This document shows, piece by piece, positions 1 through 48,428 of a DNA stretch of 48,428 nucleotides. The notes beneath the pieces are model-generated. The model was not told the DNA's origin and made no database searches. It saw only the letters and a program-made list of their open reading frames with translations. A program made the translations under genes and the position numbers. Location of the stretch: IMG/VR virus record IMGVR_UViG_3300045988_145381; one strand, 5' to 3'. Source of the stretch: a virus. Taxonomy: Duplodnaviria > Heunggongvirae > Uroviricota > Caudoviricetes. Positions within the stretch are counted from its first letter, which is position 1, and each line of letters opens with the position of its first letter.

Positions 1-128
1 GTTGACACCCTCGCATAACCATATTGCATACTTTCTAAACCGCGATTGTTGCTAAAAGCGGGAAAAAATATCGTTCAGACGACACAGAGGCAATTCGCAA
101 AAACCTCGGTTTACAGGAAACGGTAAAT
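1..128. repeat. 128-bp sequence identical to 48301..48428 (circular contig overlap)
   Basis: First 128 nt of the window recur exactly at the 3' end; the boundary coincides with the invertase crossover site. Confidence 0.9.
103..127. promoter_or_regulatory. DNA-invertase crossover site, left inverted repeat (gix/cix-like)
   Basis: acctcggtttacaggaaacggtaaa is the perfect reverse complement of 3155..3179; it lies about 75 bp upstream of the invertase start (wrap-around). Confidence 0.75.
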
Positions 129-2157: not shown

Positions 2158-4536
2158 TTAAACGCTCGCTACATTATACCAGGTGCCATTTATATACTTT
2201 TGAACGGGTCTGTAATAAACGCCCGCTATATTATCGGCAGAGTTGGACCCTGTATCCTGAACATTAATACCAGACAATACATGACCTGACGGGCACTGGA
2301 AATTCCATGTTTGCCAGTTGTTCACTCCATAATATTGCTGTGAACCAAGTCGAACATCTTTCACATATCTGGAATCAAAATTGCCATAGTTGCCGGGAAT
2401 AACTTGCGCACCGCAAAGCCAGTTTCCGTTATTATCCATGTACGCCTGACCATCGGTGCCATTGGCTGTCCTTGAATTATTAATCATGTAGATGCCAAAT
2501 TGCTTGTTCCCCAGTCCACCTATCATGAACTTGCGGTCGGCGTGATTCTGGCGAAGCAACGCCTGAGCGCTATCAGTGTTAACTATATTTTTCCCAAAGA
2601 TAGCGTTGTTATCGCGCATCTGAATCCACATACCATTACTGCTGTTAATAGCAAAACGGTCTGAAAGTGTCTCCCCTGAAACATTAAGACCACGCCCCAT
2701 CGAAACAGCGCCAGTAGCGTTATTAATCCATAATGGCCTTAATCCGTTATAAGTCCCCATGTTGTCACCGGAGTTTGTCAACATGAAGTATGTATTTGAA
2801 CCATCATTACGAATAAAGAATCCGTAATTACCATAAGCAATACGTAGGCCGTTTGCTGATTTTGATATGACTTCGCCATTTACAATGGCATTGACAAGAA
2901 CATACAAAGCATCCCATTTAAGATTCATCAGGTCTTTTGTTGTGGTACTTTGTTTGCTTCTCCATTTGAAATATTCATTGCCGTTGTCGCCTGTCTCAAA
3001 CCACATGTATGAATCAGTGTCACCATCGGCATCATTTTTAAATCCAATCTTCGCCCAGTCAGTATTTCGAATCCAGGCAAGGATTGAGTCATTTTCAAAA
3101 GTAAGCCCGCCGGACAAGGTATCGCCTGTCTTTTGAACGGCGTTACCAGCCTTGTTTACCGTTTCCTGTAAACCGAGGTATTCGATAACGGCAGCAACGG
3201 TCGATTTCGCAAGAATATCCCGCCCGACTTTTGTCAGGGTTGCCAGGCTGGCGACATCATTCCCCGTAAAATACGGAAACTTGTCTGCCGCAGTAGCAAG
3301 CCCGGCCAGCGCCGTCAGGGTGGCATCTTTCGGTTGCTTACCCGCAAGCGCGTTAGTCATGGTGGTCGCAAAATTCGGGTCGTTTCCCAGAGCCGCCGCT
3401 AACTCGTTCAGCGTATTCAGTGCGTCAGGTGACGAGTCCACGAGGGCAGCGATCGCAGCCATAACGAAAGCCGTGCTTGCGATTTGGGTATTATTCGTTC
3501 CCTGTCGCGCAGTTGGCGTTGTTGGCGTTCCGGTCAACGCAGGACTGTTTAAGGGCGCTTTCTTGTTCGTTTCATCCATTACCGCCTTGACCGCTTTCGA
3601 TGTCGCGGCCAGTGTTTCAGACGTGCTGTTGGTGGAACTACTGAGCTGAGTTATTCCCCTTACAGTCAGTGAAGCTACAGGCACATTTGTTATCTGCTCC
3701 CACGAATGCGTGTGATTGGACGGAGCCTTTCCGGCCGCAAGATCATACGCTGCCTTAACAGCCTTTGGTGTTGCTGCTAGCGTTTCAGACGTGCTGTTGG
3801 TGGCACTACTGAGCTGAACAATCCCTTTTCGCGCTGTGGTAGCGTCCTGTGCGGTGTATTTGCCATTAGCCAGGTCATATGCTGCCTTAACAGCCTTAGG
3901 CGTCGCAGCAAGCGTTTCAGACGAGCTATTGGTGGCGCTGCTAAGTTGAACAAAGCCTTTTGAGGTTAAAGTTGCATCAGGATGATTACGTGATTGTTCA
4001 TGTTTCACAATGGCTTGCTTAAGCCGCTTTGCTGAAACAGCAAGGGAATCATCTGTACCGTCATCAATTTCTTGTTCATTGGCAAATCTTGCAACCCCAA
4101 CAACAGTTTCGGTTGCGGGAGGATTAATAAACTCAATATCACCAAATGTAATATTTTTAGTATCAAGAGTCTTGATTGCTATGTCACTTGATATTAAAGC
4201 AATAGTAGATGATGCTTTATTTATTATTGCTTGTTCTTGCGAGTATACAGCAAACAACGTTCCCTTATTTGTATACAATCCTATTGTATGGACAACATAC
4301 TCATCTTTACTATCATCCTTCGCCGTTACATGAATTGTATCAGGGGAAACAACTTTGCCACCTATTGTGGTAAGTCGTTTTATTTCGTTTGTTATATTTG
4401 TTTGTGAAGTTGACGTGACATAATATCTACTACCTAAACCAACAGAAACAATCTCAACTTTATTTGTTCCTGTTTTGTTGGCATTAACCAGCTCCTGACG
4501 CCCGGCGTCAGTCATCGTAAATAATAATTTACTCAC
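2158..4536 (-). CDS. tail fibre protein (constant N-terminal part plus currently expressed variable C-terminal part)
   Basis: 792-aa ORF with three tandem ~33-aa repeats (G[IF][27 protein letters not shown]) typical of phage tail-fibre repeats; crossover site inside the ORF; followed by tfa. Confidence 0.85.
3155..3179. promoter_or_regulatory. DNA-invertase crossover site, right inverted repeat (inside tail fibre ORF)
   Basis: Perfect reverse complement of 103..127; falls at codons ~453-461 of the fibre. Confidence 0.75.
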
Positions 4537-28041: not shown

Positions 28042-28307
28042 TCATCATCTCCTGCCGCACATACAACCTCACAAAAAACATCAGCGGAATGTTTCTCCTT
28101 GAACGAATGACGCTCAAAACCGCACTCAATATCAGGCGCAAAAACATCCACCACATACGGTCTTTCAGAATGTTGGTTTTCCCAACGATAAACCGTAGTG
28201 ACGTTGAAATGTTTTAACGCTTCACGGAACTCAACGCTGCCCGTCAGGTTTTTTGAGGTCAGGTATTGCAGGAGGTTTTTTACTACTTCACGGTCTTGTA
28301 CTTTCAT
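28038..28307 (-). CDS. hypothetical protein
   Basis: 89-aa ORF directly downstream of copy 1 of the conserved promoter-leader element. Confidence 0.45.
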   Translation of the reverse strand: MKVQDREVVKNLLQYLTSKNLTGSVEFREALKHFNVTTVYRWENQHSERPYVVDVFAPDIECGFERHSFKEKHSADVFCEVVCAAGDDE

Positions 28308-28314
28308 CGGGTTA

Positions 28315-28425
28315 TCTCCGGTTTAACCAGGGCGGGTATCGCTCGGTTTCGGGTATAACCTTAGGAAATTTTTTCCCACCTGTAAAGCACTTTTTATATA
28401 AATCTATAATTATATAATTCTATGA
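28315..28425 (-). promoter_or_regulatory. conserved promoter-leader element, copy 1
   Basis: Near-identical to 34827..34940 and 44347..44457; gene-direction read gives TTTACA-17bp-TAAGGT, a -10-like TATACC, a conserved leader and ggaga Shine-Dalgarno; AT-rich palindrome upstream. Confidence 0.6.
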
Positions 28426-29315: not shown

Positions 29316-29391
29316 TGGTGGCCCCTACCGGATTTGAACCGATGACCGTGCGATTATGAGTCGCCTGCTCTAACCACTGAGCTAAGGGGCC
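29316..29391 (-). tRNA. tRNA, anticodon CAU (Ile2-like or Met)
   Basis: 76-nt cloverleaf GGCCCCTTAGCTCAGTGGTTAGAGCAGGCGACTCATAATCGC...GGTTCAAATCCGGTAGGGGCCACCA with encoded CCA; 5' half matches E. coli ileX-type tRNA as recalled from memory. Confidence 0.85.
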
Positions 29392-29560
29392 ATATTTGAT
29401 CTGTTTGTCTGGTGTGGCGCCGCGCACGAAAATCCCAGCCAATAAATTCAGGATTTTTGGGCGCGGCGGCATATCAGACAAACATGGTTGATGCGTGCGC
29501 CCATAAGAAAAGCGCATAGAATGTTGTAACTATATATTTATATAATTATAGAAATATATA

Positions 29561-29770
29561 TTACTTTCGGCAGTTGATTTCCCATGCCCTGTTATGAGCC
29601 AGAATATCTTTCTTTGTCTGGCGGTCCATAACATCGATGTCGTGATCAGTCAGGTAGATGGGCTTTACCCAATCACAGGCGGTATCAACCACCACCGGGA
29701 CGCTTCCACGACTCCCGCAGCTCGCGATCAACATCGTCATCAGCCATATGGTTAACACTCTGCTGTACAT
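29561..29770 (-). CDS. o-spanin (Rz1-like lipoprotein)
   Basis: 69-aa ORF with lipobox-like LIASC, out of frame inside the 3' part of the i-spanin ORF. Confidence 0.55.
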   Translation of the reverse strand: MYSRVLTIWLMTMLIASCGSRGSVPVVVDTACDWVKPIYLTDHDIDVMDRQTKKDILAHNRAWEINCRK

Positions 29771-33040: not shown

Positions 33041-33406
33041 TCACTTCAACTCCTCCCGACGACGTTCCTGAAGCTCTAGCATTGCGGCTCGGAAATCCTG
33101 CCACCACTCCTCATCTGCAACGGGGGTGTTCCGCTCCAGCACCTTGTCCGCATCTGCGATCAGATTTGCCAGACTCTTGTCTGAAATCTTCGTTACCGGA
33201 GTCGTTGGTTGCTCAACCTGCCCGATAGGTTTTATCGTGCTCAAAAGGAGGCGACGGCTGGAAAGTGGCGACCCACAACGGCGCCCATCTTCCTTGCGAT
33301 ATGTTTCTTTCGGACCAACACACCAAGTTGTCGGCGTTTCGCGTAACTTCACTTTTTTCTCACCATCAATGGTGATGATTATTCCGGTATGGGTTTTGAT
33401 GCTCAT
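33041..33406 (-). CDS. hypothetical protein
   Basis: 121-aa ORF coupled to the upstream gene. Confidence 0.4.
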   Translation of the reverse strand: MSIKTHTGIIITIDGEKKVKLRETPTTWCVGPKETYRKEDGRRCGSPLSSRRLLLSTIKPIGQVEQPTTPVTKISDKSLANLIADADKVLERNTPVADEEWWQDFRAAMLELQERRREELK

Positions 33407-33684
33407 GCCACAGCCCCTCTCAACGGCTTAACTTTGGCTAATAAGGTGTTAAACAACATGGAGTTAGGGTTCATGCCAAATGGCAATTCCGGTTTAGCGG
33501 AGTAGTACAGGCAACCATTTATTTTCCTGGTTGTTATCTGTCCTTCGGCAACCATGCTTCTCAGTCTGCAACGCATAGAGTTCTGCGACACACCAATGTG
33601 CTCCGCGATTACGTCCACTTTTGAACATGGGTGATCGGTCAGGAAATTAATCACATCTTGGGGGTTAATAATTTTGCGTTTCAT
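33403..33684 (-). CDS. small winged-helix-like DNA-binding protein (putative)
   Basis: ORF 33403..33705 with probable start MKRKIINPQDV...; AT-rich palindrome motif immediately upstream. Confidence 0.4.
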   Translation of the reverse strand: MKRKIINPQDVINFLTDHPCSKVDVIAEHIGVSQNSMRCRLRSMVAEGQITTRKINGCLYYSAKPELPFGMNPNSMLFNTLLAKVKPLRGAVA

Positions 33685-33761
33685 TGTCGAGGCGTCCTTA
33701 TACATTTATATAAATATATAATTCTATATACAGCGGGAGACATCCCGCCGTATGCTTACTG

Positions 33762-34829
33762 TCAGGCTTTCAATAGCGATTCTTTCAGATATCGGGCATC
33801 AGCCAGGGCGTTTGGAGTAATCTTGCGAACCCATGCATTACGGGTTGGACTCCACTTAAAGGCGCGTGATTTAAGCAGCGAACGAATGTTTGCCTCTGGT
33901 TTGCCAGGGAAATAAAACAGGATGCGGTTATCCTCTGGATCTATCTCCATAGAAAAGCCGTCGTATTCTTCGCGCTGTGCTCCTGTTACAGACTTGACCG
34001 ATTCAAGCTCCTTAATACGGCTCTGTAGTCGTTTGATTTCGGCGTTATTGTTGCTCAGTGCGTATGAAGGGAATCCGATGCGCCCACAGAAATCTCCGGC
34101 CAGTAACTCTTTGGCTTCGCTTTCTGTAAACCTGAGATCGATTAATGCAGAAAGCTGCTGTAATTGGTCTTTTTTGTATTTGCGAATGGCCTTATTTGCG
34201 GCCTTCATTTTGACGTGTGACTTCATGCAGCCTTGCAGTTTACGAAGCAACTTAAATAGCGCATCAGGATCATCAGACGAAATTCCATTACGACCAACAC
34301 CTGCGGCTTTGCTCTCGTAGTGTGATGCTTTACTTTCGCATTCAACAAACGCTTTTCTGAATAACGCATCAGCTTTAGACAAACGGCGGCGATGGCCTTT
34401 CGCGCTATAATGGTCAACTAAAATCGGCTGGCCTAACGGGATCACATCCAACAGGTCATGCGCTCGCTTATGCGCTACCGCTCCTTCTTTTCTGGCTTTT
34501 TCTGCACGAGCAATATATCGGGCAAGACGCGCGTTCTGGCGTTCCTGATAGGTGTTTACGTAATCATCTCCGCGCTGCTGCTGTTCAAGCCATGCTTTGC
34601 GCAGATCTTCTGTTACGTCCACCAGCTCCGCAGGGATACAACCAGTTTGGGCTTCATAAGAGTAACCATCCTCATAGATGCGCCCATCGTCTTCAACAAA
34701 GAAAAAGGTTTCGTGCTCATCGCTTTTGACCATACGACCATTAACATGGCGTAATAGGTAGCCAGTATCAGTGCTTAACAGGCTGTTAGGGTTGTTGATC
34801 CAGTCAGAAATAATTACTTGTTTATTCAT
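33762..34829 (-). CDS. DUF3560-like protein
   Basis: 355-aa ORF; C-terminal ...FKWSPTRNAWVRK... resembles the DUF3560 signature recalled from memory; downstream of promoter-leader copy 2. Confidence 0.5.
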   Translation of the reverse strand: MNKQVIISDWINNPNSLLSTDTGYLLRHVNGRMVKSDEHETFFFVEDDGRIYEDGYSYEAQTGCIPAELVDVTEDLRKAWLEQQQRGDDYVNTYQERQNARLARYIARAEKARKEGAVAHKRAHDLLDVIPLGQPILVDHYSAKGHRRRLSKADALFRKAFVECESKASHYESKAAGVGRNGISSDDPDALFKLLRKLQGCMKSHVKMKAANKAIRKYKKDQLQQLSALIDLRFTESEAKELLAGDFCGRIGFPSYALSNNNAEIKRLQSRIKELESVKSVTGAQREEYDGFSMEIDPEDNRILFYFPGKPEANIRSLLKSRAFKWSPTRNAWVRKITPNALADARYLKESLLKA

Positions 34830-34940
34830 CAGATTTCTCCGGTTTAACCAGGGCGGGTATCGCTCGGTTTCGGGTATAACCTTAGGAAATTTTTTCCCAC
34901 CTGTAAAGCACTTTTTATATAAATTATATAATTATATATT
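34827..34940 (-). promoter_or_regulatory. conserved promoter-leader element, copy 2
   Basis: Near-identical to copies 1 and 3; lies between the Q-like gene and the DUF3560-like gene. Confidence 0.6.
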
Positions 34941-35000
34941 ATTAGATTTTCGATGTTCCCGATGTCTACACACCTATCAAAAAGCTCAAAATTGACACTT

Positions 35001-37370: not shown

Positions 37371-37489
37371 ACCACGATATGTGGTATTAAAACCACATAT
37401 CGTGAGTTTTTCAATGGGCGAAACAAAAAATAACCTTCTATTTGTGGTCCACCTCTCGTCTTACCATGTGAAAACCACTAAATGTGGTA
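37371..37489. promoter_or_regulatory. immunity operator region with three ACCAC-N5-GTG(G/A)(T/G) sites
   Basis: accacgatatgtggt (37371..37385), accacatatcgtgag (37392..37406), accactaaatgtggt (37475..37489) in the divergent intergenic region; tataaat -10-like element at 37493..37499. Confidence 0.6.
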
Positions 37490-38188: not shown

Positions 38189-38280
38189 TACACAGCACGG
38201 CGAAAGCCGTGCATTTCTACGCTCAAAAAAACCACGCTTTGTGGTTTTGACAACATGTGAAAGTATAAAAGAGGCTACGC

Positions 38281-38655
38281 ATGGAATTACATACAGCCAA
38301 TAAAAACGAAACTCTGATCACTGCTGGAATCGAAATCCAAGCGTTGAACATAGCGATTGAGTGTATGTTATGCCAAATCATTGATAATGAGAAAGATATC
38401 GACTGGATAGAATCTATCCTTCATCTGGCATCAGAACAAAAAGTCTGCCTCAAAACGGCCTTACAATACGATGTGCCAGCGGTATCGAAGCTGTGCCAGC
38501 CATTGATGGCATATAACAGGGCTATTATTTCTGTATGCCTCATGATTCTTGATGAAAACACCCCTCTTAGCGACCGCTCAGAAGCTGCTCTAACCCTCTC
38601 ACGTAAACAGCGACAGCTAGCAAATCAACTGATATCAACGATAGCTGACCTCTGA
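38281..38655 (+). CDS. hypothetical protein downstream of the repressor gene
   Basis: 124-aa ORF followed by a hairpin at 38660..38679. Confidence 0.45.
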   Translation: MELHTANKNETLITAGIEIQALNIAIECMLCQIIDNEKDIDWIESILHLASEQKVCLKTALQYDVPAVSKLCQPLMAYNRAIISVCLMILDENTPLSDRSEAALTLSRKQRQLANQLISTIADL

Positions 38656-38683
38656 CTGCAAGCGGGCTAACGCCCGCTTATAT

Positions 38684-38790
38684 GATTATAGATTTATATA
38701 ATTATATAAAACGCTTTTCATCCGCCAAAAAGTTGGTTATGCTTACCTCGTTCTATAAATATAGATTTATAGAATTATATAACCAAACAC
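38684..38790. repeat. AT-rich palindromic repeats upstream of parF-like gene (candidate centromere/operator)
   Basis: Perfect 16-bp palindrome ttatataattatataa at 38694..38709 and related tatagatttatagaattatataa at 38764..38786; a third copy at 39458..39490. Confidence 0.5.
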
Positions 38791-39459
38791 ATGGAGTCTC
38801 GACAAATGACTATCTCTGTAGGTATTTTCAACGGAAAAGGCGGCGTAACCAAATCAACAATTGCCCGTGCTTTAGCAGTTGCTTATGCAAAGGCTGGCTG
38901 GAATGTATGCCTGATCGATATGGATGTGCTTAACGGAACGGTAACGCGTTGGGTACAACGCAGAATGGCCAACAATATCGAACCAGCAATCGCGGCGCAG
39001 CCGTGCGGCACACCATCACAAGTCCAGAAAATCATCGAATCAGAAGTATACGACCTGGTTATCGTCGATGGCGGTGCCTACGCATCTGAATCAGTACCGA
39101 AGCTCTCTGAATTTCTGGATATGGTTATTTTGCCAACCAGATTCTCTACCGATGACCTGGAAACCACCGTTAACACTGCTCACGGCATCGTTAAAAAGGG
39201 TGTACCAATCAAGAAAATTTGCATGGTGTTTTCCGGCGCGGCTGAAAACGAAGCTGACTATATTGAAGCCCAAGAGTACCTGGCTAATACGCCATACTTT
39301 GTTGTTGATAAGTACATTCCCCACAAGCCAGCTCTGAGCAAAGCTCAGGATAAGGGCTTAAGCCTCATTGAGTGCTCATACGTTGCGCCACGCAAAAAGG
39401 CAGACGACGTTATTCAGGGGATTATCAACCAGCTTGAGGCTCTGACTACTGCCGCGTAA
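38791..39459 (+). CDS. ParA/ParF-type partition ATPase
   Basis: 222-aa ORF with deviant Walker A (GIFNGKGGVTKST); start may be the second Met at 38806. Confidence 0.7.
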   Translation: MESRQMTISVGIFNGKGGVTKSTIARALAVAYAKAGWNVCLIDMDVLNGTVTRWVQRRMANNIEPAIAAQPCGTPSQVQKIIESEVYDLVIVDGGAYASESVPKLSEFLDMVILPTRFSTDDLETTVNTAHGIVKKGVPIKKICMVFSGAAENEADYIEAQEYLANTPYFVVDKYIPHKPALSKAQDKGLSLIECSYVAPRKKADDVIQGIINQLEALTTAA

Positions 39460-39502
39460 TATATAATTATAGTTTTATAGATTTATATAAGAGGGGATAC
39501 AC

Positions 39503-39751
39503 ATGGCCGCACCATCAAAACCACCAAAGAAGAACAGCAAAGGCGTACCGCCATCGATCGAACAACCGCAGGTTTTCGACCCGACTGAAACGCCAACCAG
39601 AACCAAATCAGGTGGGGCACAAATGGCGTTTAACGTCGACCCTGAATTTAAACGCGAGTACAAAACGTTCGCCAGCTCAATGGATATGTCATTGAAAGAA
39701 GTGCTGACAAAATCTTTTGAGTTACTCAAGGCTCAATACAACCAGAAGTAA
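39503..39751 (+). CDS. ParG-like small ribbon-helix-helix partition protein (putative)
   Basis: 82-aa ORF immediately after the ParA-like gene; flexible basic N-terminus and C-terminal strand-helix-helix-like segment. Confidence 0.5.
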   Translation: MAAPSKPPKKNSKGVPPSIEQPQVFDPTETPTRTKSGGAQMAFNVDPEFKREYKTFASSMDMSLKEVLTKSFELLKAQYNQK

Positions 39752-39967: not shown

Positions 39968-39990
39968 AACCATAAAAAAGGCCCCCGAAG
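39968..39990 (-). terminator. rho-independent terminator (minus-strand orientation)
   Basis: ggcccccgaaggggcc hairpin with a T-run on the minus strand. Confidence 0.5.
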
Positions 39991-40001
39991 GGGCCTAATC
40001 G

Positions 40002-40124
40002 CTACTTGCTGCTAATGTTTATCGTCACATTTAGAGCGTTATCAGTAATCTTCCAACCCTCCCCATGTGGCGTAAACAAAGCTCCAGTAACAACGATAAA
40101 AATACACATACAGTATTTTTTCAT
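40002..40124 (-). CDS. small hydrophobic peptide (40 aa, MKKYCMCIFIVVTGALFTPHGEGW...)
   Basis: Read directly from sequence; Shine-Dalgarno-like aaggg upstream; terminator 39968..39990 immediately downstream. Confidence 0.25.
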   Translation of the reverse strand: MKKYCMCIFIVVTGALFTPHGEGWKITDNALNVTINISSK

Positions 40125-40520
40125 TGTATGGCCCTTACAGGCCGTTTCACGGCATCCCCACCGACGAAAACAACGCGAGAGCAAGCACGGCTGCTTGTGC
40201 TTGCATGTACGGCAACGGAGAATCCTCCCCTAAAGTCGGTGCCCGGGTGCGAATCGGCGGGAAGGTCCACAGGTATTTTACGATTATTTTAAGATTAGTA
40301 ATAGGAAAGAAATTAAACGAAAAAACTCGTTTATTTTCACAAAATCAGTAACCTACCCACAATCTGTGAGTTTGCAGGCACAACAAGAACCACAATTTTT
40401 TGAAGCATAATAGTGGACTATTATTACCTTTTGGGTAAAATTAACTTGCTGCTTGTGCTTGCGTGGTTGTTTATACAACAACGTAATGCTGAAAGGACCG
40501 CGAATCCGATCAGCACGAAA

Positions 40521-40549: not shown

Positions 40550-40690
40550 TTTCTGCCTACCAATAAACCCACGCTATGTGGTTGTCTCTGTTAAAATCCC
40601 GCCGTATTGACATGAATGCGCCATTGGTGGACACTTTCCGAGCCGTAGCAAAATCTACGGTCGGGATTGGCGTCCCGATTGCACAATGGC

Positions 40691-40716
40691 GCATACCGCG
40701 TTAGCGGTTTTTTTAT
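40691..40716 (+). terminator. intrinsic terminator-like hairpin in the ant leader region
   Basis: accgc-gtta-gcggt stem-loop followed by 7 T. Confidence 0.45.
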
Positions 40717-40876
40717 GCGTAAAGCACTGCTACACCCAAATTATGGTGGGGCGTGCGGGGGCGGAGAAATCCGCGCCGGGTTTGTCATTGTGCCGGTTAC
40801 GCCAACCCTGTACGTCTCACCACCATATTGATTGGCGTCATTGGTGGTGATAGTTCCTTTAATCGGAGATATCACA

Positions 40877-41068
40877 ATGACAAACCTACCCCATGACTAT
40901 TACGTCAACCTCGTAAAGATCCTTCTCAAGAAAGCCTCATACGCCGATAAATTCCGCCTGGCTGAAATCATCGAGCGCGAAGCTATGCGCATCGCCAGCA
41001 ACGATAACGCTGTTTCTGACGCAAAAATCTCCCTCGTAACCAAAGTAGTTATGGGAGGTGCAAAATGA
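40877..41068 (+). CDS. small protein overlapping the ant start (Icd-like position)
   Basis: 63-aa ORF (MTNLPHDYYVNL...) within ORF 40832..41068; ATGA overlap with the ant-like gene. Confidence 0.35.
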   Translation: MTNLPHDYYVNLVKILLKKASYADKFRLAEIIEREAMRIASNDNAVSDAKISLVTKVVMGGAK

Positions 41069-42246
41069 AAACGCTTCCGACCGTTAACACCCTACAGCCT
41101 ATCCTGCATAACCAGCTCCCCGTTATCACTACTGAACTACTGGCGCAATTGTATGGAACCGAGCGCCAACGTCTGACAAACAATTTCAATAGAAACAAGG
41201 AACGTTTTATAGAAGGTAAACACTTTTTTAGGATAGAAGGTAAAGAGTTACGAGAGTTGAAGAACAAAAACTCTTTAAGAGTTCCTGTGAGAGTAGTTAA
41301 CGAACCATCTTTAAGAGGGTTACAAATTCCCCCGAAAGTTCGCTCCCTCATCCTCTGGACAGAACGCGGGGCTGCACGTCACGCTAAAATGCTTGAAACT
41401 AACCAAGCGTGGGATGTGTTCGAACGGCTGGAAGACTGCTATTTCAACCAGAACGCGCAAACGGCCGCGACCGTAACCGTCTCACCAAACAATGCTCGTG
41501 AGGTTGTCGATACGCTCAACGCCAAACCGATGTTTTACATTAAAGTGTGCAACAACGAGCCACTCACAACCTCAGCCGATGTTGCCCAGGCATTCAGCAC
41601 CACAAACAATTCCATCGTTATGGCCATCGATGCGTTACGCATTCCTCGCACAGCTGCGGCGCGTCATTTCTTTAAAGAGCAACGACCGTTGGAAGGAAGC
41701 GACCGCGAAATAACAATCTATCGCATGACAAAAGACGGATTTACCTTGCTCATGGAAAGTATCGACGGTCCAGGCGTGAAGGATATCAAGCTGGCCTACA
41801 TTGAAGCCTTTAACGCTATCAGCAGCGTGTTAAAAACACAGTACGAGCGCGATCTGGCTAAACGACTGTACCAGGAAAAAACGATTATCCGCGCGGCAAC
41901 AGAGCATAATCGGCTATTAACGGAACCGAACTACAGGAAGGAACTAATCAAGGAGTTTGACAAGGCAACAGGGAAAACCAAAGCGGCGCTAAGTCTGCCA
42001 GCAATGACTCAGGAAAATGTGATATCAGCCTTACTTCTTGATCTGCTCAGAAACGCCAGAGCACTTATCAGCTTTGACGAAAACCTGAATCCTCAGCTCA
42101 AGCTACTACCACCGACAGGCAAAGTAGTCGACCAGGCTGATCACAACAGCATACTCAGCGTACTGGATGCAAACCTGCCAGCCAGGACACTACAGGATCT
42201 GATAAAAACATGTGCTGATAAGCTGGCACAGAAAAGCAGACCATAA
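41065..42246 (+). CDS. ant: antirepressor (ORF6N/KilA-N-like plus Rha/Ant-like domains)
   Basis: 393-aa ORF; N-terminal ...ITTELLAQLYGTERQRLTNNFNRNKERFIEGKHFFRIEGKELREL... and central Rha/Ant-like region; hairpin terminator at 42252..42271. Confidence 0.65.
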   Translation: MKTLPTVNTLQPILHNQLPVITTELLAQLYGTERQRLTNNFNRNKERFIEGKHFFRIEGKELRELKNKNSLRVPVRVVNEPSLRGLQIPPKVRSLILWTERGAARHAKMLETNQAWDVFERLEDCYFNQNAQTAATVTVSPNNAREVVDTLNAKPMFYIKVCNNEPLTTSADVAQAFSTTNNSIVMAIDALRIPRTAAARHFFKEQRPLEGSDREITIYRMTKDGFTLLMESIDGPGVKDIKLAYIEAFNAISSVLKTQYERDLAKRLYQEKTIIRAATEHNRLLTEPNYRKELIKEFDKATGKTKAALSLPAMTQENVISALLLDLLRNARALISFDENLNPQLKLLPPTGKVVDQADHNSILSVLDANLPARTLQDLIKTCADKLAQKSRP

Positions 42247-43958: not shown

Positions 43959-44339
43959 TTACTTAACGAGGAATAAAAATGGTTTATTGTTCGGCGGTGT
44001 AATCGGGGCTGGCTCGCTTTTGCTCATGCGATCAGTGTACCAGGCCAACTCCTTGTCAAAGTAAGCCTGATTAAAATAGGCCATGAATGTAGTTTCAAAT
44101 CCATAACGACCGCTAATACGCAGCATCTGATTGCCGTTCTCTGTTTCCAGATATACCTGGGCACGTTCCTGATTCTCCTTCAGCCAGGTTAAAGCCTCAT
44201 CGCATGAGGACACACGATACTCATCATCGTAGCAGTCATCGATGCGGCTTGAGGAAGAACGGCAAATCACGCCAACAGAACCAGCCAGGATAGTTTGAAT
44301 TTTAAGGAAAGCGTTTTTGCGGATTTTAATCATGCTCAT
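43959..44339 (-). CDS. hypothetical protein
   Basis: 126-aa ORF directly downstream of promoter-leader copy 3. Confidence 0.45.
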   Translation of the reverse strand: MSMIKIRKNAFLKIQTILAGSVGVICRSSSSRIDDCYDDEYRVSSCDEALTWLKENQERAQVYLETENGNQMLRISGRYGFETTFMAYFNQAYFDKELAWYTDRMSKSEPAPITPPNNKPFLFLVK

Positions 44340-44346
44340 CGGGTTA

Positions 44347-44457
44347 TCTCCGGTTTAACCAGGGCGGGTATCGCTCGGTTTCGGGTATAACCTTAGGAAT
44401 TTTTTTCCCACCTGTAAAGCACTTTTTATATAAATATATAATTATATAATTCTATGA
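44347..44457 (-). promoter_or_regulatory. conserved promoter-leader element, copy 3
   Basis: Near-identical to copies 1 and 2, including the upstream ttatataattctatga motif. Confidence 0.6.
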
Positions 44458-46611: not shown

Positions 46612-47451
46612 TTAATGTTGGAGTGATTTCCAGGTCTTTCTTAGCCTGTTATAACGCTGCTCAACGAGGGAGCGTAAATATGCAAGGTCAGCACCAGGAT
46701 ACATGCCATCAGCAAATTCCTGGCTAACCTCTCTAGTGATTTGATGGCGAAGTTCGGCCTCTCCCTTTTCCTGAACAAGACGCGCAGCTCTCTCCGCTGC
46801 TTTCTGTTTTGCCTTTATCTCTCTGGCCGTCTTCCTCTGACGCCATACATTCTCCATCTGCTCCTGAATAACAATACGCTTATAATCAGCCTCCGTTATC
46901 GCTTTTTTAAGCCGTTCGCTATTCTTCGCATTGAAGTAATTAAGTTTCTGGCTAACCGCACGTCTCCATGCTTGTTCAGTAATACCAACTGTTTCCAGCA
47001 GTTGATCACGAATCTCGATTTTCGCTGGCCAATACTGTTTATTCACCCGATCCCAGCGACGTTCATAATCAATAAAACCTAACTCTTTCAGTTGCGACAA
47101 CGCCCTTGTACAGCGCGTTATAGACTTGTTCCCAGCTTCGGATACGGTAGACAGGCCGCAAAAATCAGCCAACGCCTCAGCACTGGCCAGAACCCGCTTA
47201 GAAATGATGTTTACATGGTGCAAAATCGCAGCAATCACAGCATTAATCGCCCGACGACGATGCTCGTTTATCCGGCGTTTCCGCTCTGACGGTTGATTAA
47301 CGTAGAACGCAACCTCACACGTAAGATCACGACCATTAATGCGCTGTAAAGCATCAGATAACACCAGCGGCAGCTTGTGCGTATGGTGCTTTGGAGGCTG
47401 GAACTCCGGCGACAAATTACAAACGTAAGCTGAACGTAGAGACGGCATTGG
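46612..47451 (-). CDS. repA: IncFII-type replication initiator RepA
   Basis: ORF 46612..47604 trimmed to MDRPMPSLRS...; strong resemblance to R100/R1 RepA1 as recalled (...KSITRCTRALSQLKELGFIDYE...). Confidence 0.75.
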   Translation of the reverse strand, partial: PMPSLRSAYVCNLSPEFQPPKHHTHKLPLVLSDALQRINGRDLTCEVAFYVNQPSERKRRINEHRRRAINAVIAAILHHVNIISKRVLASAEALADFCGLSTVSEAGNKSITRCTRALSQLKELGFIDYERRWDRVNKQYWPAKIEIRDQLLETVGITEQAWRRAVSQKLNYFNAKNSERLKKAITEADYKRIVIQEQMENVWRQRKTAREIKAKQKAAERAARLVQEKGEAELRHQITREVSQEFADGMYPGADLAYLRSLVEQRYNRLRKTWKSLQH

Positions 47452-47494
47452 TCTATCCATATGTTCGCTCTTGCGTCCACGGAAAACCAACGTA

Positions 47495-47576
47495 TAATGG
47501 GAGTTGTCGAGGCGCCCATGGTTAGTTGTTGGTTTTCCTTTCCGTGGATGTCGCAAGAAGCCCGCAGATTTATCTG
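47495..47576 (+). ncRNA. candidate antisense RNA to the repA leader (CopA-like)
   Basis: Plus-strand TTGCGT-16bp-TATAAT promoter at 47461..47488, long imperfect stem, terminator hairpin gcccgcagatttatctgcgggc plus ttttt at 47548..47576. Confidence 0.45.
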
Positions 47577-47775
47577 CGGGCTTTTTGTTTCCATATCTGG
47601 TCACTTTTCAACCAGACACCCACAATCATAACCACGTTACGTGGTTTTAAGAGAACTCTACCACAACACTTTCGGTCATGCACGAAGTCTCTCACTGATC
47701 GAACGATAATCCACCAGTAAAAGGATCTAAATTGGATCTCGTTTTGCGAGCATCATACTACTGGCCTAACTCCAG

Positions 47776-48330
47776 TCAATGATTCCCAGCCGGAAACCTG
47801 CGGTAAAGCGTGGATAAGGTAACATCGAAGATAATCGCTATCCGCTTACGTGAAACACCATTCGCAATAAGCCTTCCGATCTGTTCCCATTGCTCTGGTG
47901 CCAATTTTGAGCGGCGTCCTCCTATCCTGCCGTTAGCCCTTGCCACCGCCAATCCTGCACGCGTTCTTTCAATCATATTTTCCCGCTCCATCTCTGCGAC
48001 TGCACTCAGCATCGTGTAGGCAAAGCGGCCAATTGAAGTGCTAATTTTTATCCCTTCCGTAATCGAAATAAACTCAATGTTGTTTGATAAAAAATAGTTT
48101 AGTAAATCAACAAGATGAATCAGAGAACGCCCCATTCGGTCCAGCTTCCAGACAATAACCGTATCGCCCGGCCGTAACACCTTCAGTAGCTTATCAAGTC
48201 CTGGTCGTTTTGATTTAGCACCGGATATTTTATCTTCAAAAATCCGGTCACATCCTGAACTCCTGAGCGCCTCCAATTGTAATTCCAAATTCTGGTCAAA
48301 AGTTGACACCCTCGCATAACCATATTGCAT
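47776..48330 (-). CDS. serine DNA invertase (Hin/Gin/Cin/Pin family)
   Basis: 184-aa ORF MQYGYARVSTFDQNLELQLEAL...DRMGRS... with catalytic Ser motif and C-terminal HTH; start wraps to window position 30; crossover site upstream. Confidence 0.9.
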   Translation of the reverse strand: MQYGYARVSTFDQNLELQLEALRSSGCDRIFEDKISGAKSKRPGLDKLLKVLRPGDTVIVWKLDRMGRSLIHLVDLLNYFLSNNIEFISITEGIKISTSIGRFAYTMLSAVAEMERENMIERTRAGLAVARANGRIGGRRSKLAPEQWEQIGRLIANGVSRKRIAIIFDVTLSTLYRRFPAGNH

Positions 48331-48428
48331 ACTTTCTAAACCGCGATTGTTGCTAAAAGCGGGAAAAAATATCGTTCAGACGACACAGAGGCAATTCGCA
48401 AAAACCTCGGTTTACAGGAAACGGTAAA

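What the first reader, a model, noticed from the sequence alone, without database searches (positions are those of the whole stretch)
38694..38709. Dispersed family of AT-rich palindromes (TTATATAATTATATAA type) at several promoters and at the partition locus
A perfect 16-bp palindrome at 38694..38709 and close variants (tatagatttatagaattatataa, ttatatatttatataa) occur upstream of the parF-like gene (twice), the parG-like gene (39458..39490), the tRNA (29521..29560), the winged-helix gene (33706..33735) and at the distal end of all three promoter-leader copies. A single dimeric DNA-binding protein may therefore coordinate partition, tRNA and late-gene promoters.
Basis: seen in the sequence. 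Interest (0 to 1): 0.55.

Follow-up and report, generated by a model that had tools for sequence, protein, structure and literature searches.

The report
Dispersed binding-box arrays of a partition protein
The AT-rich "palindromes" are eight conserved arrays of four 8-bp boxes in a phage-plasmid, most likely bound by its small ParG-like partition protein, so one protein would mark both the plasmid's centromere and several promoters; this design is known from other plasmids but not described for this widespread E. coli/Yersinia element.

Summary
The window is a circular ~48.3-kb myovirus-type phage-plasmid. It carries eight intergenic arrays, each made of four tandem 8-bp boxes (TT-ATAT/ATAG-AA). 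No such array appears in shuffled intergenic DNA. Two complete relatives have arrays at the same eight places.

The functional unit is the 8-bp box, not a 16-bp palindrome. Each box is a 4-bp core plus an AATT-like spacer, the layout of the TP228 ParG operator.

The gene after the ParF-type ATPase encodes an 82-aa protein with a disordered basic tail and a ribbon-helix-helix (RHH) domain remotely related to ParG. In nine distant homologues' loci, including a non-phage plasmid, the box core differs (CTTT, CGTT, CGCT, GTAC, TACA). The 8-bp period and the placement around the parA promoter are kept. The core tracks the three predicted DNA-facing beta-strand residues.

Best reading: a ParG/omega-like centromere-binding protein coats all arrays. 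Three arrays at par form the centromere and operator. Five others abut the -35 of a triplicated promoter module or lie upstream of tRNA-Met and a winged-helix gene. Their effect there, probably repression, is inferred and untested.

Verdict: new variant of a known kind, of moderate interest.

The parts
38678..38709 (.). Array E: TTATATGA TTATAGAT TTATATAA TTATATAA. Distal par array. It starts right after a terminator hairpin (38657-38677) and ends 5 bp upstream of the putative par -35.
   Evidence: box content conserved in diverged relatives while the flanks diverge
38715..38743 (+). Putative par promoter: -35 TTTTCA (38715-38720), 17-bp spacer, -10 TATGCT (38738-38743). It is flanked by arrays E and F.
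   Evidence: Read from sequence. The -10 position is conserved as TATCAT in L002 and L004. Relatives show the same array / TTTACA-17-TAAGnT / array layout. Inferred, not mapped.
38751..38782 (.). Array F: TTCTATAA ATATAGAT TTATAGAA TTATATAA. Proximal par array spanning about +1 to +32 of the putative par transcript, just before the parF RBS. Operator-like position.
38806..39459 (+). parF-like gene: 217-aa Walker-type ParA without an N-terminal DNA-binding domain (type Ib).
   Evidence: Pfam CbiA/ParA/MipZ; phrog_164 ParA-like; best partition-protein match in PDB is ParF 4dzz, E 3e-4, 206 aa
39459..39490 (.). Array G: ATATATAA TTATAGTT TTATAGAT TTATATAA. It fills the parF-parG spacer and abuts the parG RBS.
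   Evidence: conserved in relatives; L004 has exactly one extra 8-bp box here
39503..39751 (+). parG-like gene: 82 aa, with a disordered basic N-terminal tail (1-40; conserved K13-G14), a beta-strand Q40-M-A-F-N-V-D46, and helices at 47-59 and 64-80 (ribbon-helix-helix). Proposed binder of all arrays.
   Evidence: AF2 models; Foldseek top hits almost all RHH proteins such as CopG, AmrZ, Arc, ParD, CdbA; 29/57 homologues hit Pfam RHH_10 and 4 hit ParG; family profile's best PDB hit is TP228 ParG; hhalign probability 84%
28394..28425 (.). Array A (read on the minus strand: TCATAGAA TTATATAA TTATAGAT TTATATAA). It lies 7 bp upstream of the -35 of promoter module copy 1. Its first box overlaps the stop codon of the MT-A70 methylase gene.
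28305..28393 (-). Promoter-leader module copy 1: AAAGTGC, -35 TTTACA (28386-28381), 17-bp spacer, -10 TAAGGT (28363-28358), ~50-nt leader, GGAG and ATG (28307). It heads the late/structural operon.
   Evidence: three-way alignment; downstream genes as annotated in pECO-b75
29530..29561 (.). Array B (minus strand: ATATATAT TTCTATAA TTATATAA ATATATAG). It lies 139 bp upstream of tRNA-Met (29316-29391, minus strand) and abuts a -35-like GTTACA.
33698..33729 (.). Array C (minus strand: ATATAGAA TTATATAT TTATATAA ATGTATAA). It follows a hairpin and ends 13 nt before the ATG (33684) of the MarR-like winged-helix gene. The RBS context GGACGCCTCGACAATG resembles that of parF.
34915..34946 (.). Array D. 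Degenerate in this window (a 1-nt insertion shifts two boxes out of phase). It is a perfect four-box array in pECO-b75 and vB_YpM_39. It lies 7 bp upstream of the -35 of promoter module copy 2, which heads the DUF3560/primase-like gene (34829-33762).
44426..44457 (.). Array H (minus strand: TCATAGAA TTATATAA TTATATAT TTATATAA). It follows a terminator (44488-44466) and lies 7 bp upstream of the -35 of promoter module copy 3, which heads the unknown 126-aa gene (44339-43959).

Best explanation
The eight arrays are binding sites for the phage-plasmid's own ParG-like ribbon-helix-helix centromere-binding protein (39503-39751). Each 8-bp box is a 4-bp core (ATAT or ATAG) plus an AATT-like spacer and would take one RHH dimer. 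Four contiguous boxes would be coated cooperatively. At the par locus, array E (abutting the -35), array F (about +1 to +32) and array G (parF-parG spacer) would together form the centromere and the autoregulatory operator of a type Ib parF/parG-like system. The protein's conserved basic N-terminal tail would contact the ParF-like ATPase. The five other arrays would place further transcription-unit starts under the same protein. Three of them sit 7 bp upstream of the -35 (TTTACA-17-TAAGGT) of a triplicated promoter-leader module that heads the late operon, a DUF3560/primase-like gene and an unknown gene. One is upstream of tRNA-Met and one is directly 5' of a winged-helix regulator gene. In the modules the array covers roughly -44 to -75, where the RNA polymerase alpha subunit contacts an UP element. 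The most likely effect there is damping or repression by occlusion, as omega does in pSM19035. The same sites may also serve as extra centromeres, as in N15. What is shown: the anatomy of the arrays, their conservation, the RHH fold and remote ParG relationship, and protein-box co-variation. What is inferred: actual binding, stoichiometry, the sign of regulation and centromere activity.
For: (1) Non-random, conserved arrays. There are 18 matches against 0.6 expected. Shuffled intergenic DNA gives 0 arrays in 300 shuffles. Two complete relatives have exactly eight arrays at the same places. In diverged relatives the boxes are kept while the inter-array DNA diverges, and L004 differs from the window by exactly one extra 8-bp box in array G.
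(2) The protein. It has a disordered tail plus strand-helix-helix (pLDDT above 90 for residues 41-80). Foldseek hits are RHH proteins. Homologues hit Pfam RHH_10 (29/57) and ParG (4/57). The best PDB profile hit is TP228 ParG, and hhalign gives 84% probability, E 7.8e-6. The gene lies directly after a ParF-type ATPase.
(3) Architecture. It matches the TP228 ParG sites: 4-bp boxes with 4-bp AT-rich spacers, one dimer per box, orientation tolerated, a distal centromere plus a proximal operator (PMC3130281). In pSM19035 at least four contiguous repeats are needed for full ParA activation (PMC9499535). Here every array has four boxes.
(4) Co-variation in nine distant loci (34-48% identity to the window protein): same 8-bp period and same placement, different core. 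Predicted DNA-facing strand residues (positions 40/42/44 by hhalign to ParG R-N-N) against core: Q-A-N gives ATAT/ATAG (window); L-T-N gives TACA/TATA (L007); P/A-N-N gives CTTT (L005, L009, L010); S-N-K gives CTTT (L011); P-N-K gives CGTT (L008, L013); D-N-K gives CGCT (L006); Q-K-G gives GTAC (L012). Proteins with the same 42/44 pair share a box at only 41-56% overall identity. Proteins of similar identity with a different pair do not, except L011 (N-K), whose CTTT core is the N-N type; its box TTCTTTAA is one base from the N-K box TTCGTTAA.
(5) Co-occurrence. Only ParA and ParG homologues are found with arrays in all loci. L008 is a non-phage plasmid, and winged-helix and p124 homologues are absent from L005-L013. 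L002 and L004 keep TTATATAA with ParG at 79-90% identity, while CI, p124 and the winged-helix protein are at 39-65%.
(6) Dispersal in relatives. Arrays are also dispersed in intergenic DNA of relatives with other boxes: L005 has eight, L013 four outside par, L011 one.
Against: There is no binding, expression or stability experiment. The window protein itself has no Pfam hit and no direct PDB sequence hit, and the ParG relationship is remote (profile E 0.099). The co-variation rests on about 12 loci examined by eye plus a simple cross-scan, and phylogenetic non-independence is only partly controlled. In phage contexts other co-diverging proteins cannot be formally excluded as binders of the non-par arrays. 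The promoters are consensus guesses; the simple sigma-70 scan was not enriched and did not call the module promoter. The sign of regulation is unknown. If the module promoters are active sigma-70 promoters, it is unclear how a protein that is also present during lytic growth would release them. Three of the five dispersed arrays belong to one duplicated module, so they are not independent events.
Confidence: 0.7

Rival explanations
1. The dispersed arrays are bound by the ParG-like protein but act only as extra centromere or partition-complex sites. They sit next to promoters only because intergenic space is scarce, and they have no regulatory effect.
For: All arrays have four boxes, the minimum that fully activates ParA in pSM19035. 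N15 has four dispersed centromere sites. Arrays are confined to the few intergenic gaps. Three of the promoter-adjacent arrays are copies of one module.
Against: The arrays sit at fixed, short distances from -35 elements or RBSs, not at arbitrary intergenic positions: 7 bp in three modules, 5 bp at par, and abutting the RBS at arrays C and G. Most arrays end in a perfect TTATATAA box on the gene-proximal side. In known RHH systems, binding next to a promoter represses it.
Confidence: 0.2
2. The arrays are generic AT-rich promoter DNA (UP elements, clustered -10-like TATAAT hexamers) or preferred sites for host nucleoid proteins such as H-NS or Fis. No dedicated phage-plasmid protein is involved.
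For: Position -44 to -75 is where UP elements lie. The junction TAAAAAGTG resembles the proximal UP subsite (own knowledge). TpA-rich DNA attracts H-NS (own knowledge). The 16-mer contains TATAAT.
Against: The strict 8-bp phase, the four boxes and the invariant positions are not properties of UP elements. Relatives have GC-containing cores (CGTT, CGCT, GTAC) in the same places with the same period. The box type follows the ParG-like protein's strand residues. Arrays F, G and C lie downstream of or away from a -35. The 8-bp phasing does not give helical-phase curvature.
Confidence: 0.08
3. A different element-encoded protein binds the arrays, or at least the non-par ones. Candidates are the MarR-like winged-helix protein (33403-33684), the 124-aa protein encoded just upstream of parF (38281-38655), and the CI-like repressor.
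For: The winged-helix gene has an array directly 5' of its RBS, as expected for an autoregulator. The 124-aa gene is syntenic with parFG in many phage-plasmid relatives.
Against: Winged-helix and p124 homologues are undetectable in L005-L013, which still carry arrays. The non-phage plasmid L008 and the short contigs L006 and L012 have arrays and ParA/ParG homologues (L012: the ParG homologue only), with no winged-helix, p124 or CI homologue detected. CI has its own palindromic operators, ACCAC-N5-GTGGT. Tandem 8-bp boxes fit RHH proteins, not winged-helix dimers.
Confidence: 0.07

Closest known systems
TP228 ParF-ParG with the parH centromere and OF operator (type Ib partition)
   Same: A small ParA is followed by a small RHH protein with a flexible N-terminal tail. 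The sites are 4-bp cores separated by 4-bp AT-rich spacers (8-bp period) in direct or inverted orientation, with one dimer per box. A distal array and a promoter-proximal operator both lie upstream of parF (PMC3130281). Remote sequence relationship.
   Different: The core is ATAT/ATAG rather than ACTC. Arrays have four boxes rather than 8 plus 12. There is an extra array between parF and parG. Five further arrays lie elsewhere in the genome at other promoters, which is not described for TP228 in the paper read. Sequence similarity is below Pfam ParG thresholds for the window protein.
Omega (RHH ParB) of pSM19035 with its heptad arrays
   Same: An RHH centromere-binding protein whose arrays of short contiguous repeats overlap several promoters (copS, delta, omega). 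It is both partition protein and global regulator. At least four contiguous repeats are needed for full ParA activation (PMC9499535; PMC4627068 abstract).
   Different: Omega's repeats are 7-bp non-palindromic WATCACW in arrays of 7-10 on a Firmicute plasmid. No Omega-family match appeared among the Pfam hits of the 57 homologues. The targets here are phage genes (late operon, tRNA, winged-helix regulator), not copy control or toxin-antitoxin genes.
N15 SopAB with four dispersed centromere inverted repeats
   Same: A phage-plasmid whose centromere sites are scattered through the genome rather than clustered (PMC7205306). The partition system is reported to influence late gene expression (Ravin, Rech and Lane 2008; title as cited in PMC11652158).
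   Different: N15 has a type Ia system with an HTH SopB and single palindromic sites on a linear siphovirus-type prophage. Here the system is type Ib with an RHH protein and four-box tandem arrays on a circular myovirus-type element with an IncFII-type RepA.
KorB of IncP plasmid RK2 (own knowledge, not checked here)
   Same: A partition centromere-binding protein with about a dozen operators dispersed over the plasmid, acting as a global repressor.
   Different: KorB is a ParB-type HTH/CTPase protein that binds 13-bp palindromes. It is not an RHH protein and does not use tandem boxes.
MetJ and its tandem 8-bp metboxes (own knowledge, not checked here)
   Same: An RHH dimer per 8-bp palindromic box, with two to five boxes in tandem and cooperative binding.
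   Different: MetJ is a chromosomal metabolic repressor that needs S-adenosylmethionine. It has no partition role and no detectable homology here.

Membership tests
Type Ib (ParF/ParG-like) plasmid partition system | Small Walker-type ParA ATPase lacking an N-terminal DNA-binding domain | tested here: met
   217 aa; Pfam CbiA/ParA/MipZ; best partition-protein match in PDB is ParF 4dzz (206 aa, E 3e-4)
Type Ib (ParF/ParG-like) plasmid partition system | Small centromere-binding protein encoded directly downstream, with an RHH fold and a flexible N-terminal tail | tested here: met
   AF2: residues 1-40 have no regular secondary structure and lower confidence; the strand-helix-helix part has pLDDT above 90. 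Foldseek top hits are RHH proteins. RHH_10 is hit by 29/57 homologues.
Type Ib (ParF/ParG-like) plasmid partition system | Centromere or operator made of short tandem repeats upstream of parA | tested here: met
   Arrays E and F flank the putative par promoter. Homologous loci have the same layout.
Type Ib (ParF/ParG-like) plasmid partition system | The protein binds the repeats, stimulates the ATPase, autoregulates and stabilises the plasmid | not testable with these tools
   Needs EMSA or footprinting, ATPase assays, reporter fusions and stability assays.
Pfam ParG (PF09274) sequence family | Match to the family model above its curated threshold | tested here: not met
   The window protein has no Pfam hit at E <= 0.01. 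Only 4 of 57 homologues hit ParG, best E 2.7e-4. Profile against 1p94 gives E 0.099; hhalign probability is 84%. It is a remote relative, not a member by the curated cut-off.
Omega/pSM19035-type RHH global regulator | Arrays of contiguous short repeats overlapping several different promoters | tested here: met
   Eight arrays. Five abut -35-like elements and three abut an RBS or the transcript start. The promoters themselves are inferred.
Omega/pSM19035-type RHH global regulator | 7-bp WATCACW heptads and Omega-family protein sequence | tested here: not met
   The period is 8 bp and the core is ATAT/ATAG. No Omega family appears among the Pfam hits.
N15-type dispersed centromeres | Centromere sites scattered across a phage-plasmid genome and proven to act in partition | tested here: inconclusive
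   Dispersal is shown. Centromere activity of the individual arrays cannot be tested here.
UP element / generic AT-rich promoter DNA | AT-rich DNA at -40 to -60 with no need for a specific core, independent of an element-encoded protein | tested here: not met
   The position fits arrays A, D, E and H. However, the boxes are phased with invariant positions, and relatives have GC-containing cores that follow the ParG-like protein.

The most novel reading that the evidence does not exclude
The partition protein of this widespread enterobacterial phage-plasmid family doubles as a genome-wide switch. Its four-box arrays would hold the late operon, a replication gene, the lysis-proximal tRNA and a winged-helix regulator under control while the element is kept as a plasmid. 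Segregation and the lytic programme would then be coupled through one RHH protein. In addition, the family would show a simple, portable recognition code, from three beta-strand residues to a 4-bp core in a fixed TT....AA frame, that could be used to design orthogonal repressor or centromere pairs.
Probability: 0.3. Interest if true: 0.7.

Novelty: new variant of a known kind. Interest (0 to 1): 0.52.

Why it matters
Relatives of this element occur in at least 63 sequenced plasmids of E. coli, Salmonella, Klebsiella and Serratia and in Yersinia pestis phages. In those inspected, the ParG-like gene is annotated only as a hypothetical protein. If the reading is right, it assigns a function to an unannotated protein family: phrog_6024, with about 100 representatives at 50% clustering. 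It also defines the centromere and operator of these phage-plasmids. It predicts incompatibility or specificity groups from the box type. And it points to a direct link between plasmid segregation and phage gene expression, comparable to N15 Sop, pSM19035 omega and RK2 KorB. The co-variation between strand residues and box core gives a testable recognition code for RHH proteins.

Tried and rejected
- The word-indexed homologue search found only relatives of at least 79% identity. The exhaustive HMMER search was needed to reach distant ones.
- phmmer of the single protein against PDB found nothing.
Distant loci were therefore fetched one at a time, which limits the co-variation set to about 12 loci.
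- The simple sigma-70 scan gave fewer hits than shuffles (17 against 26.5) and missed the module promoter, so promoter calls rest on reading and conservation.
- Rfam has no family for the shared leader, and its predicted fold is not better than shuffles (z = -1.2). An RNA-level explanation of the modules was not pursued.
- The CI-like repressor was rejected as the binder because it has separate ACCAC-N5-GTGGT operators.
- Iterons or a replication origin were rejected. No arrays lie near repA (46612-47604), and the boxes are far shorter than iterons.
- Hin-type recombination sites were rejected because the arrays are far from the invertible tail-fibre region.
- There is no LexA box in the window.
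- The Ravin 2008 N15 paper is not held and is cited by title only. The vB_YpM_HQ103 paper gave no usable genome information.
- The literature searches run here found no description of these arrays or of this protein family in phage-plasmids.

Full report
**What the window is.** Bases 1-127 repeat at 48302-48428, so this is a circular assembly of about 48.3 kb. It is 96% identical over the tested 6 kb to Yersinia phages vB_YpM_39, 41 and 44. Its ParG-like protein is encoded in 63 non-mobilizable plasmids, those listed being 46-49 kb, of E. coli, Salmonella, Klebsiella and Serratia. One example is pECO-b75, whose annotation shows a myovirus structural block, holins and endolysin, a RelE/HTH toxin-antitoxin pair, an IncFII-type RepA and a ParA. 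The window is therefore a phage-plasmid. Most genes read on the minus strand.

**Checking the observation.** The 16-mer at 38694-38709 is a perfect palindrome. With up to 3 mismatches it matches 18 times, against 0.6 expected. The matches collapse into eight clusters. The repeat finder reports seven of them as one family of 32-nt copies with 8-bp internal spacing; the eighth (34915-34946) is degenerate in this window. Cut in register, each array is four 8-bp boxes. Over 28 boxes the consensus is [T/A]T[A/C]TA[T/G]A[A/T], with T2, T4 and A5 invariant. The A/C at position 3 mirrors the T/G at position 6, so TTCTATAA is TTATAGAA inverted.

Seven arrays score at least 14/16 on core positions, and all are intergenic. 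In 300 dinucleotide shuffles of the intergenic DNA alone (5.6 kb, 42% GC) none appeared. A 3rd-order Markov model trained on that DNA gave 0.03. A motif-free scan for 8-bp self-similarity picked up only these places, six of the eight arrays at its threshold. The eighth array (34915-34946) has a 1-nt insertion in this window. In pECO-b75 and vB_YpM_39 it is a perfect four-box array, and both genomes have exactly eight arrays at the same eight positions. The palindrome is a by-product of a self-complementary box repeated in tandem.

**Anatomy**.

*par locus*
- A terminator hairpin is followed at once by array E (38678-38709).
- Five bp further on lies a putative promoter, TTTTCA-17-TATGCT (38715-38743). 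Its -10 position is kept as TATCAT in diverged relatives.
- Array F (38751-38782) spans about +1 to +32, followed by the RBS and the parF-like gene (38806-39459).
- Array G (39459-39490) fills the parF-parG spacer up to the RBS of the parG-like gene (39503-39751).

*Elsewhere, reading the minus strand*
- Arrays A, D and H each sit 7 bp upstream of the -35 of a nearly identical ~90-nt module. The module is AAAGTGC, TTTACA, a 17-bp spacer, TAAGGT, a ~50-nt leader, GGAG and ATG.
- These modules head three transcription units: the late/structural operon (start 28307), a DUF3560/primase-like gene (34829) and an unknown 126-aa gene (44339).
- Array B lies 139 bp upstream of tRNA-Met.
- Array C follows a hairpin and ends 13 nt before the ATG of a MarR-like winged-helix gene (33684). 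That gene's RBS context resembles that of parF.
- Six of the eight arrays end in a perfect TTATATAA box on the gene-proximal side.

**The candidate binder.** The 82-aa product of 39503-39751 has no Pfam hit and belongs to phrog_6024, of unknown function.
- An exhaustive profile search found 102 representatives.
- Their alignment shows a basic N-terminal tail (MA..KPPKK..KG.PP), a strand (LNFKV) and two helices.
- Of 57 members, 29 hit Pfam RHH_10, 16 hit Antitox_RHH and 4 hit ParG.
- The family profile's best PDB hit is TP228 ParG 1p94 over the strand-helix-helix region, at E 0.099. hhalign against that segment gives 84% probability, E 7.8e-6.
- With the deeper alignment, AlphaFold gives pLDDT above 90 for residues 41-80, with an extended 40-46 and helices at 47-59 and 64-80. 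The tail is of lower confidence and has no regular secondary structure.
- Foldseek's top hits are almost all RHH proteins (StnY, CdbA, AmrZ, CopG, ParD, Arc). The rmsd is 1.1-2.2 Å over about 43 residues. E-values are weak, as expected for so small a domain.
- The upstream ATPase is a 217-aa ParA whose best partition-protein match in PDB is ParF.

This is a type Ib par module with a remote ParG relative.

**Link between protein and boxes.** TP228 ParG binds 4-bp ACTC boxes separated by 4-bp AT-rich spacers. One dimer binds per box, in either orientation, at a distal centromere (parH) and a proximal operator (OF) (PMC3130281). The boxes here have the same form, a TT-NNNN-AA frame.

I fetched loci for nine distant homologues (34-48% identity to the window protein). 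All have 8-bp-period arrays around parA, often also in the parA-parG spacer, and in phage-plasmids also elsewhere. The cores differ.

The hhalign alignment places window residues Q40, A42 and N44 on ParG's R-N-N, the alternate strand residues. The invariant F43 faces the core. Those three positions compare with the box core as follows:

| Positions 40/42/44 | Box core | Locus |
|---|---|---|
| Q-A-N | ATAT / ATAG | window |
| L-T-N | TACA / TATA | L007 |
| P-N-N, A-N-N, P-N-N | CTTT | L005, L009, L010 |
| S-N-K | CTTT | L011 |
| P-N-K | CGTT | L008, L013 |
| D-N-K | CGCT | L006 |
| Q-K-G | GTAC | L012 |

A cross-scan of five box types against 14 sequences is close to block-diagonal. Proteins that share the 42/44 pair share the box at only 41-56% overall identity. 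Proteins of similar identity with a different pair do not. L011 (N-K) is the exception: its CTTT core is the N-N type, and its box TTCTTTAA is one base from the N-K box TTCGTTAA.

Only ParA and ParG homologues accompany arrays in all loci.
- L008 is a plasmid with a T4SS coupling protein and no phage genes.
- Winged-helix and p124 homologues are undetectable in L005-L013.
- The Salmonella lineage (L002) and L004 keep TTATATAA with ParG at 79-90% identity, while CI, p124 and the winged-helix protein have fallen to 39-65%.
- Between close relatives the boxes persist while the inter-array DNA diverges. L004's array G has exactly one extra 8-bp box.

**Mechanism.** I commit to the following. The ParG-like RHH protein coats each four-box array, one dimer per box. 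E, F and G form the centromere and autoregulatory operator. The tail, with its invariant K13-G14, contacts the ParF-like ATPase.

The four-box size is notable. In pSM19035, four contiguous repeats are the minimum for full ParA activation (PMC9499535).

The five other arrays bring other transcription-unit starts under the same protein. In the modules the array covers about -44 to -75. The junction TAAAAAGTG resembles a proximal UP subsite (own knowledge), so occupancy should hinder alpha-CTD or -35 contacts and damp the promoter, as omega does at its promoters. The sites may also add centromeres, as in N15.

Binding, stoichiometry, the sign of regulation and centromere activity are all inferred. 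My confidence is about 0.7-0.75 that the ParG-like protein is the binder, and about 0.45 that the dispersed arrays are repressive.

**Rivals.**
- *Centromere-only sites* remain possible (0.2).
- *Generic UP or H-NS DNA* is unlikely, given the phasing and the GC-containing cores in relatives (0.08).
- *Another binder* is unlikely (0.07). CI has its own ACCAC-N5-GTGGT operators at 37371, 37474, 38231, 40568 and 47631. The winged-helix and 124-aa proteins are absent from the distant loci that still have arrays.

**Novelty.** RHH centromere-binding proteins that double as multi-promoter regulators are known (omega), and so are dispersed centromeres in a phage-plasmid (N15). I found no description of this protein family or of these arrays. 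The ParG-like gene is annotated as a hypothetical protein in the records inspected. TP228 ParG is described only at parH and OF in the paper read. I therefore rate this a new variant of a known kind, of moderate interest. The added value is a candidate recognition code and a possible link between partition and lytic genes.

Noticed in passing
window 28305-28393, 34827-34914, 44337-44425 (minus strand): Three nearly identical promoter + 5'UTR + RBS + ATG modules (98% identity between copies 1 and 3) head unrelated genes: the late operon, a DUF3560/primase-like gene and an unknown 126-aa gene. The shared leader has no Rfam family, and its predicted fold is not better than shuffles (z = -1.2). 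Why the leader and start codon are kept identical is unexplained.
   Followed up: partly
window 37371-37385, 37474-37488, 38231-38245, 40568-40582, 47631-47645: A second dispersed operator family, ACCAC-N5-GTGGT, gives 8 matches at up to 1 mismatch against 0.78 expected. The four exact matches lie in the cI/early divergent region (two), downstream of cI and upstream of repA; a one-mismatch match lies upstream of the c4/ant region. The other three one-mismatch matches lie elsewhere. These are probably the CI-like repressor's sites, which would tie immunity to replication.
   Followed up: partly
window 40642-40714, 40739-40827, 40832-42246 (+): A P1-like immI-type module: isrK-like RNA, C4 antisense RNA (both Rfam gathering-score hits), then a small ORF and an Ant-like ORF6N + Rha protein.
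   Followed up: no
window 39974-40270 (-): A full-length ryfA RNA match (143 bits; gathering score 80) lies just downstream of parG, after a terminator. It overlaps three staggered 75-aa ORFs on the + strand, which are probably spurious.
   Followed up: no
window 1-127 and 48302-48428: An exact 127-bp terminal duplication, which is an assembly overlap of a circular molecule. The true length is about 48,301 bp.
   Followed up: yes
window 3569-3961; 47776-48330; 321-2156: Three diverged 93-nt repeats lie inside the tail-fibre gene. A Hin-like invertase gene sits next to oppositely oriented tail-fibre-assembly genes, which suggests an invertible host-range segment.
   Followed up: no
L005 10330-10400; L007 4770-4800: In two distant relatives, LexA-box-like sequences (TACTGGATAAATAAACAGTA in L005; TACTGTATATATAACCAGTA in L007) precede an S24-peptidase-like gene just downstream of parG. 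The window has no such box.
   Followed up: partly
L004 2801-2841; L002 9247-9292: Between relatives, L004's array G has exactly one extra 8-bp box. L002's upstream par array also differs in length, though that alignment is ambiguous. The L004 case fits selection on phased boxes.
   Followed up: yes
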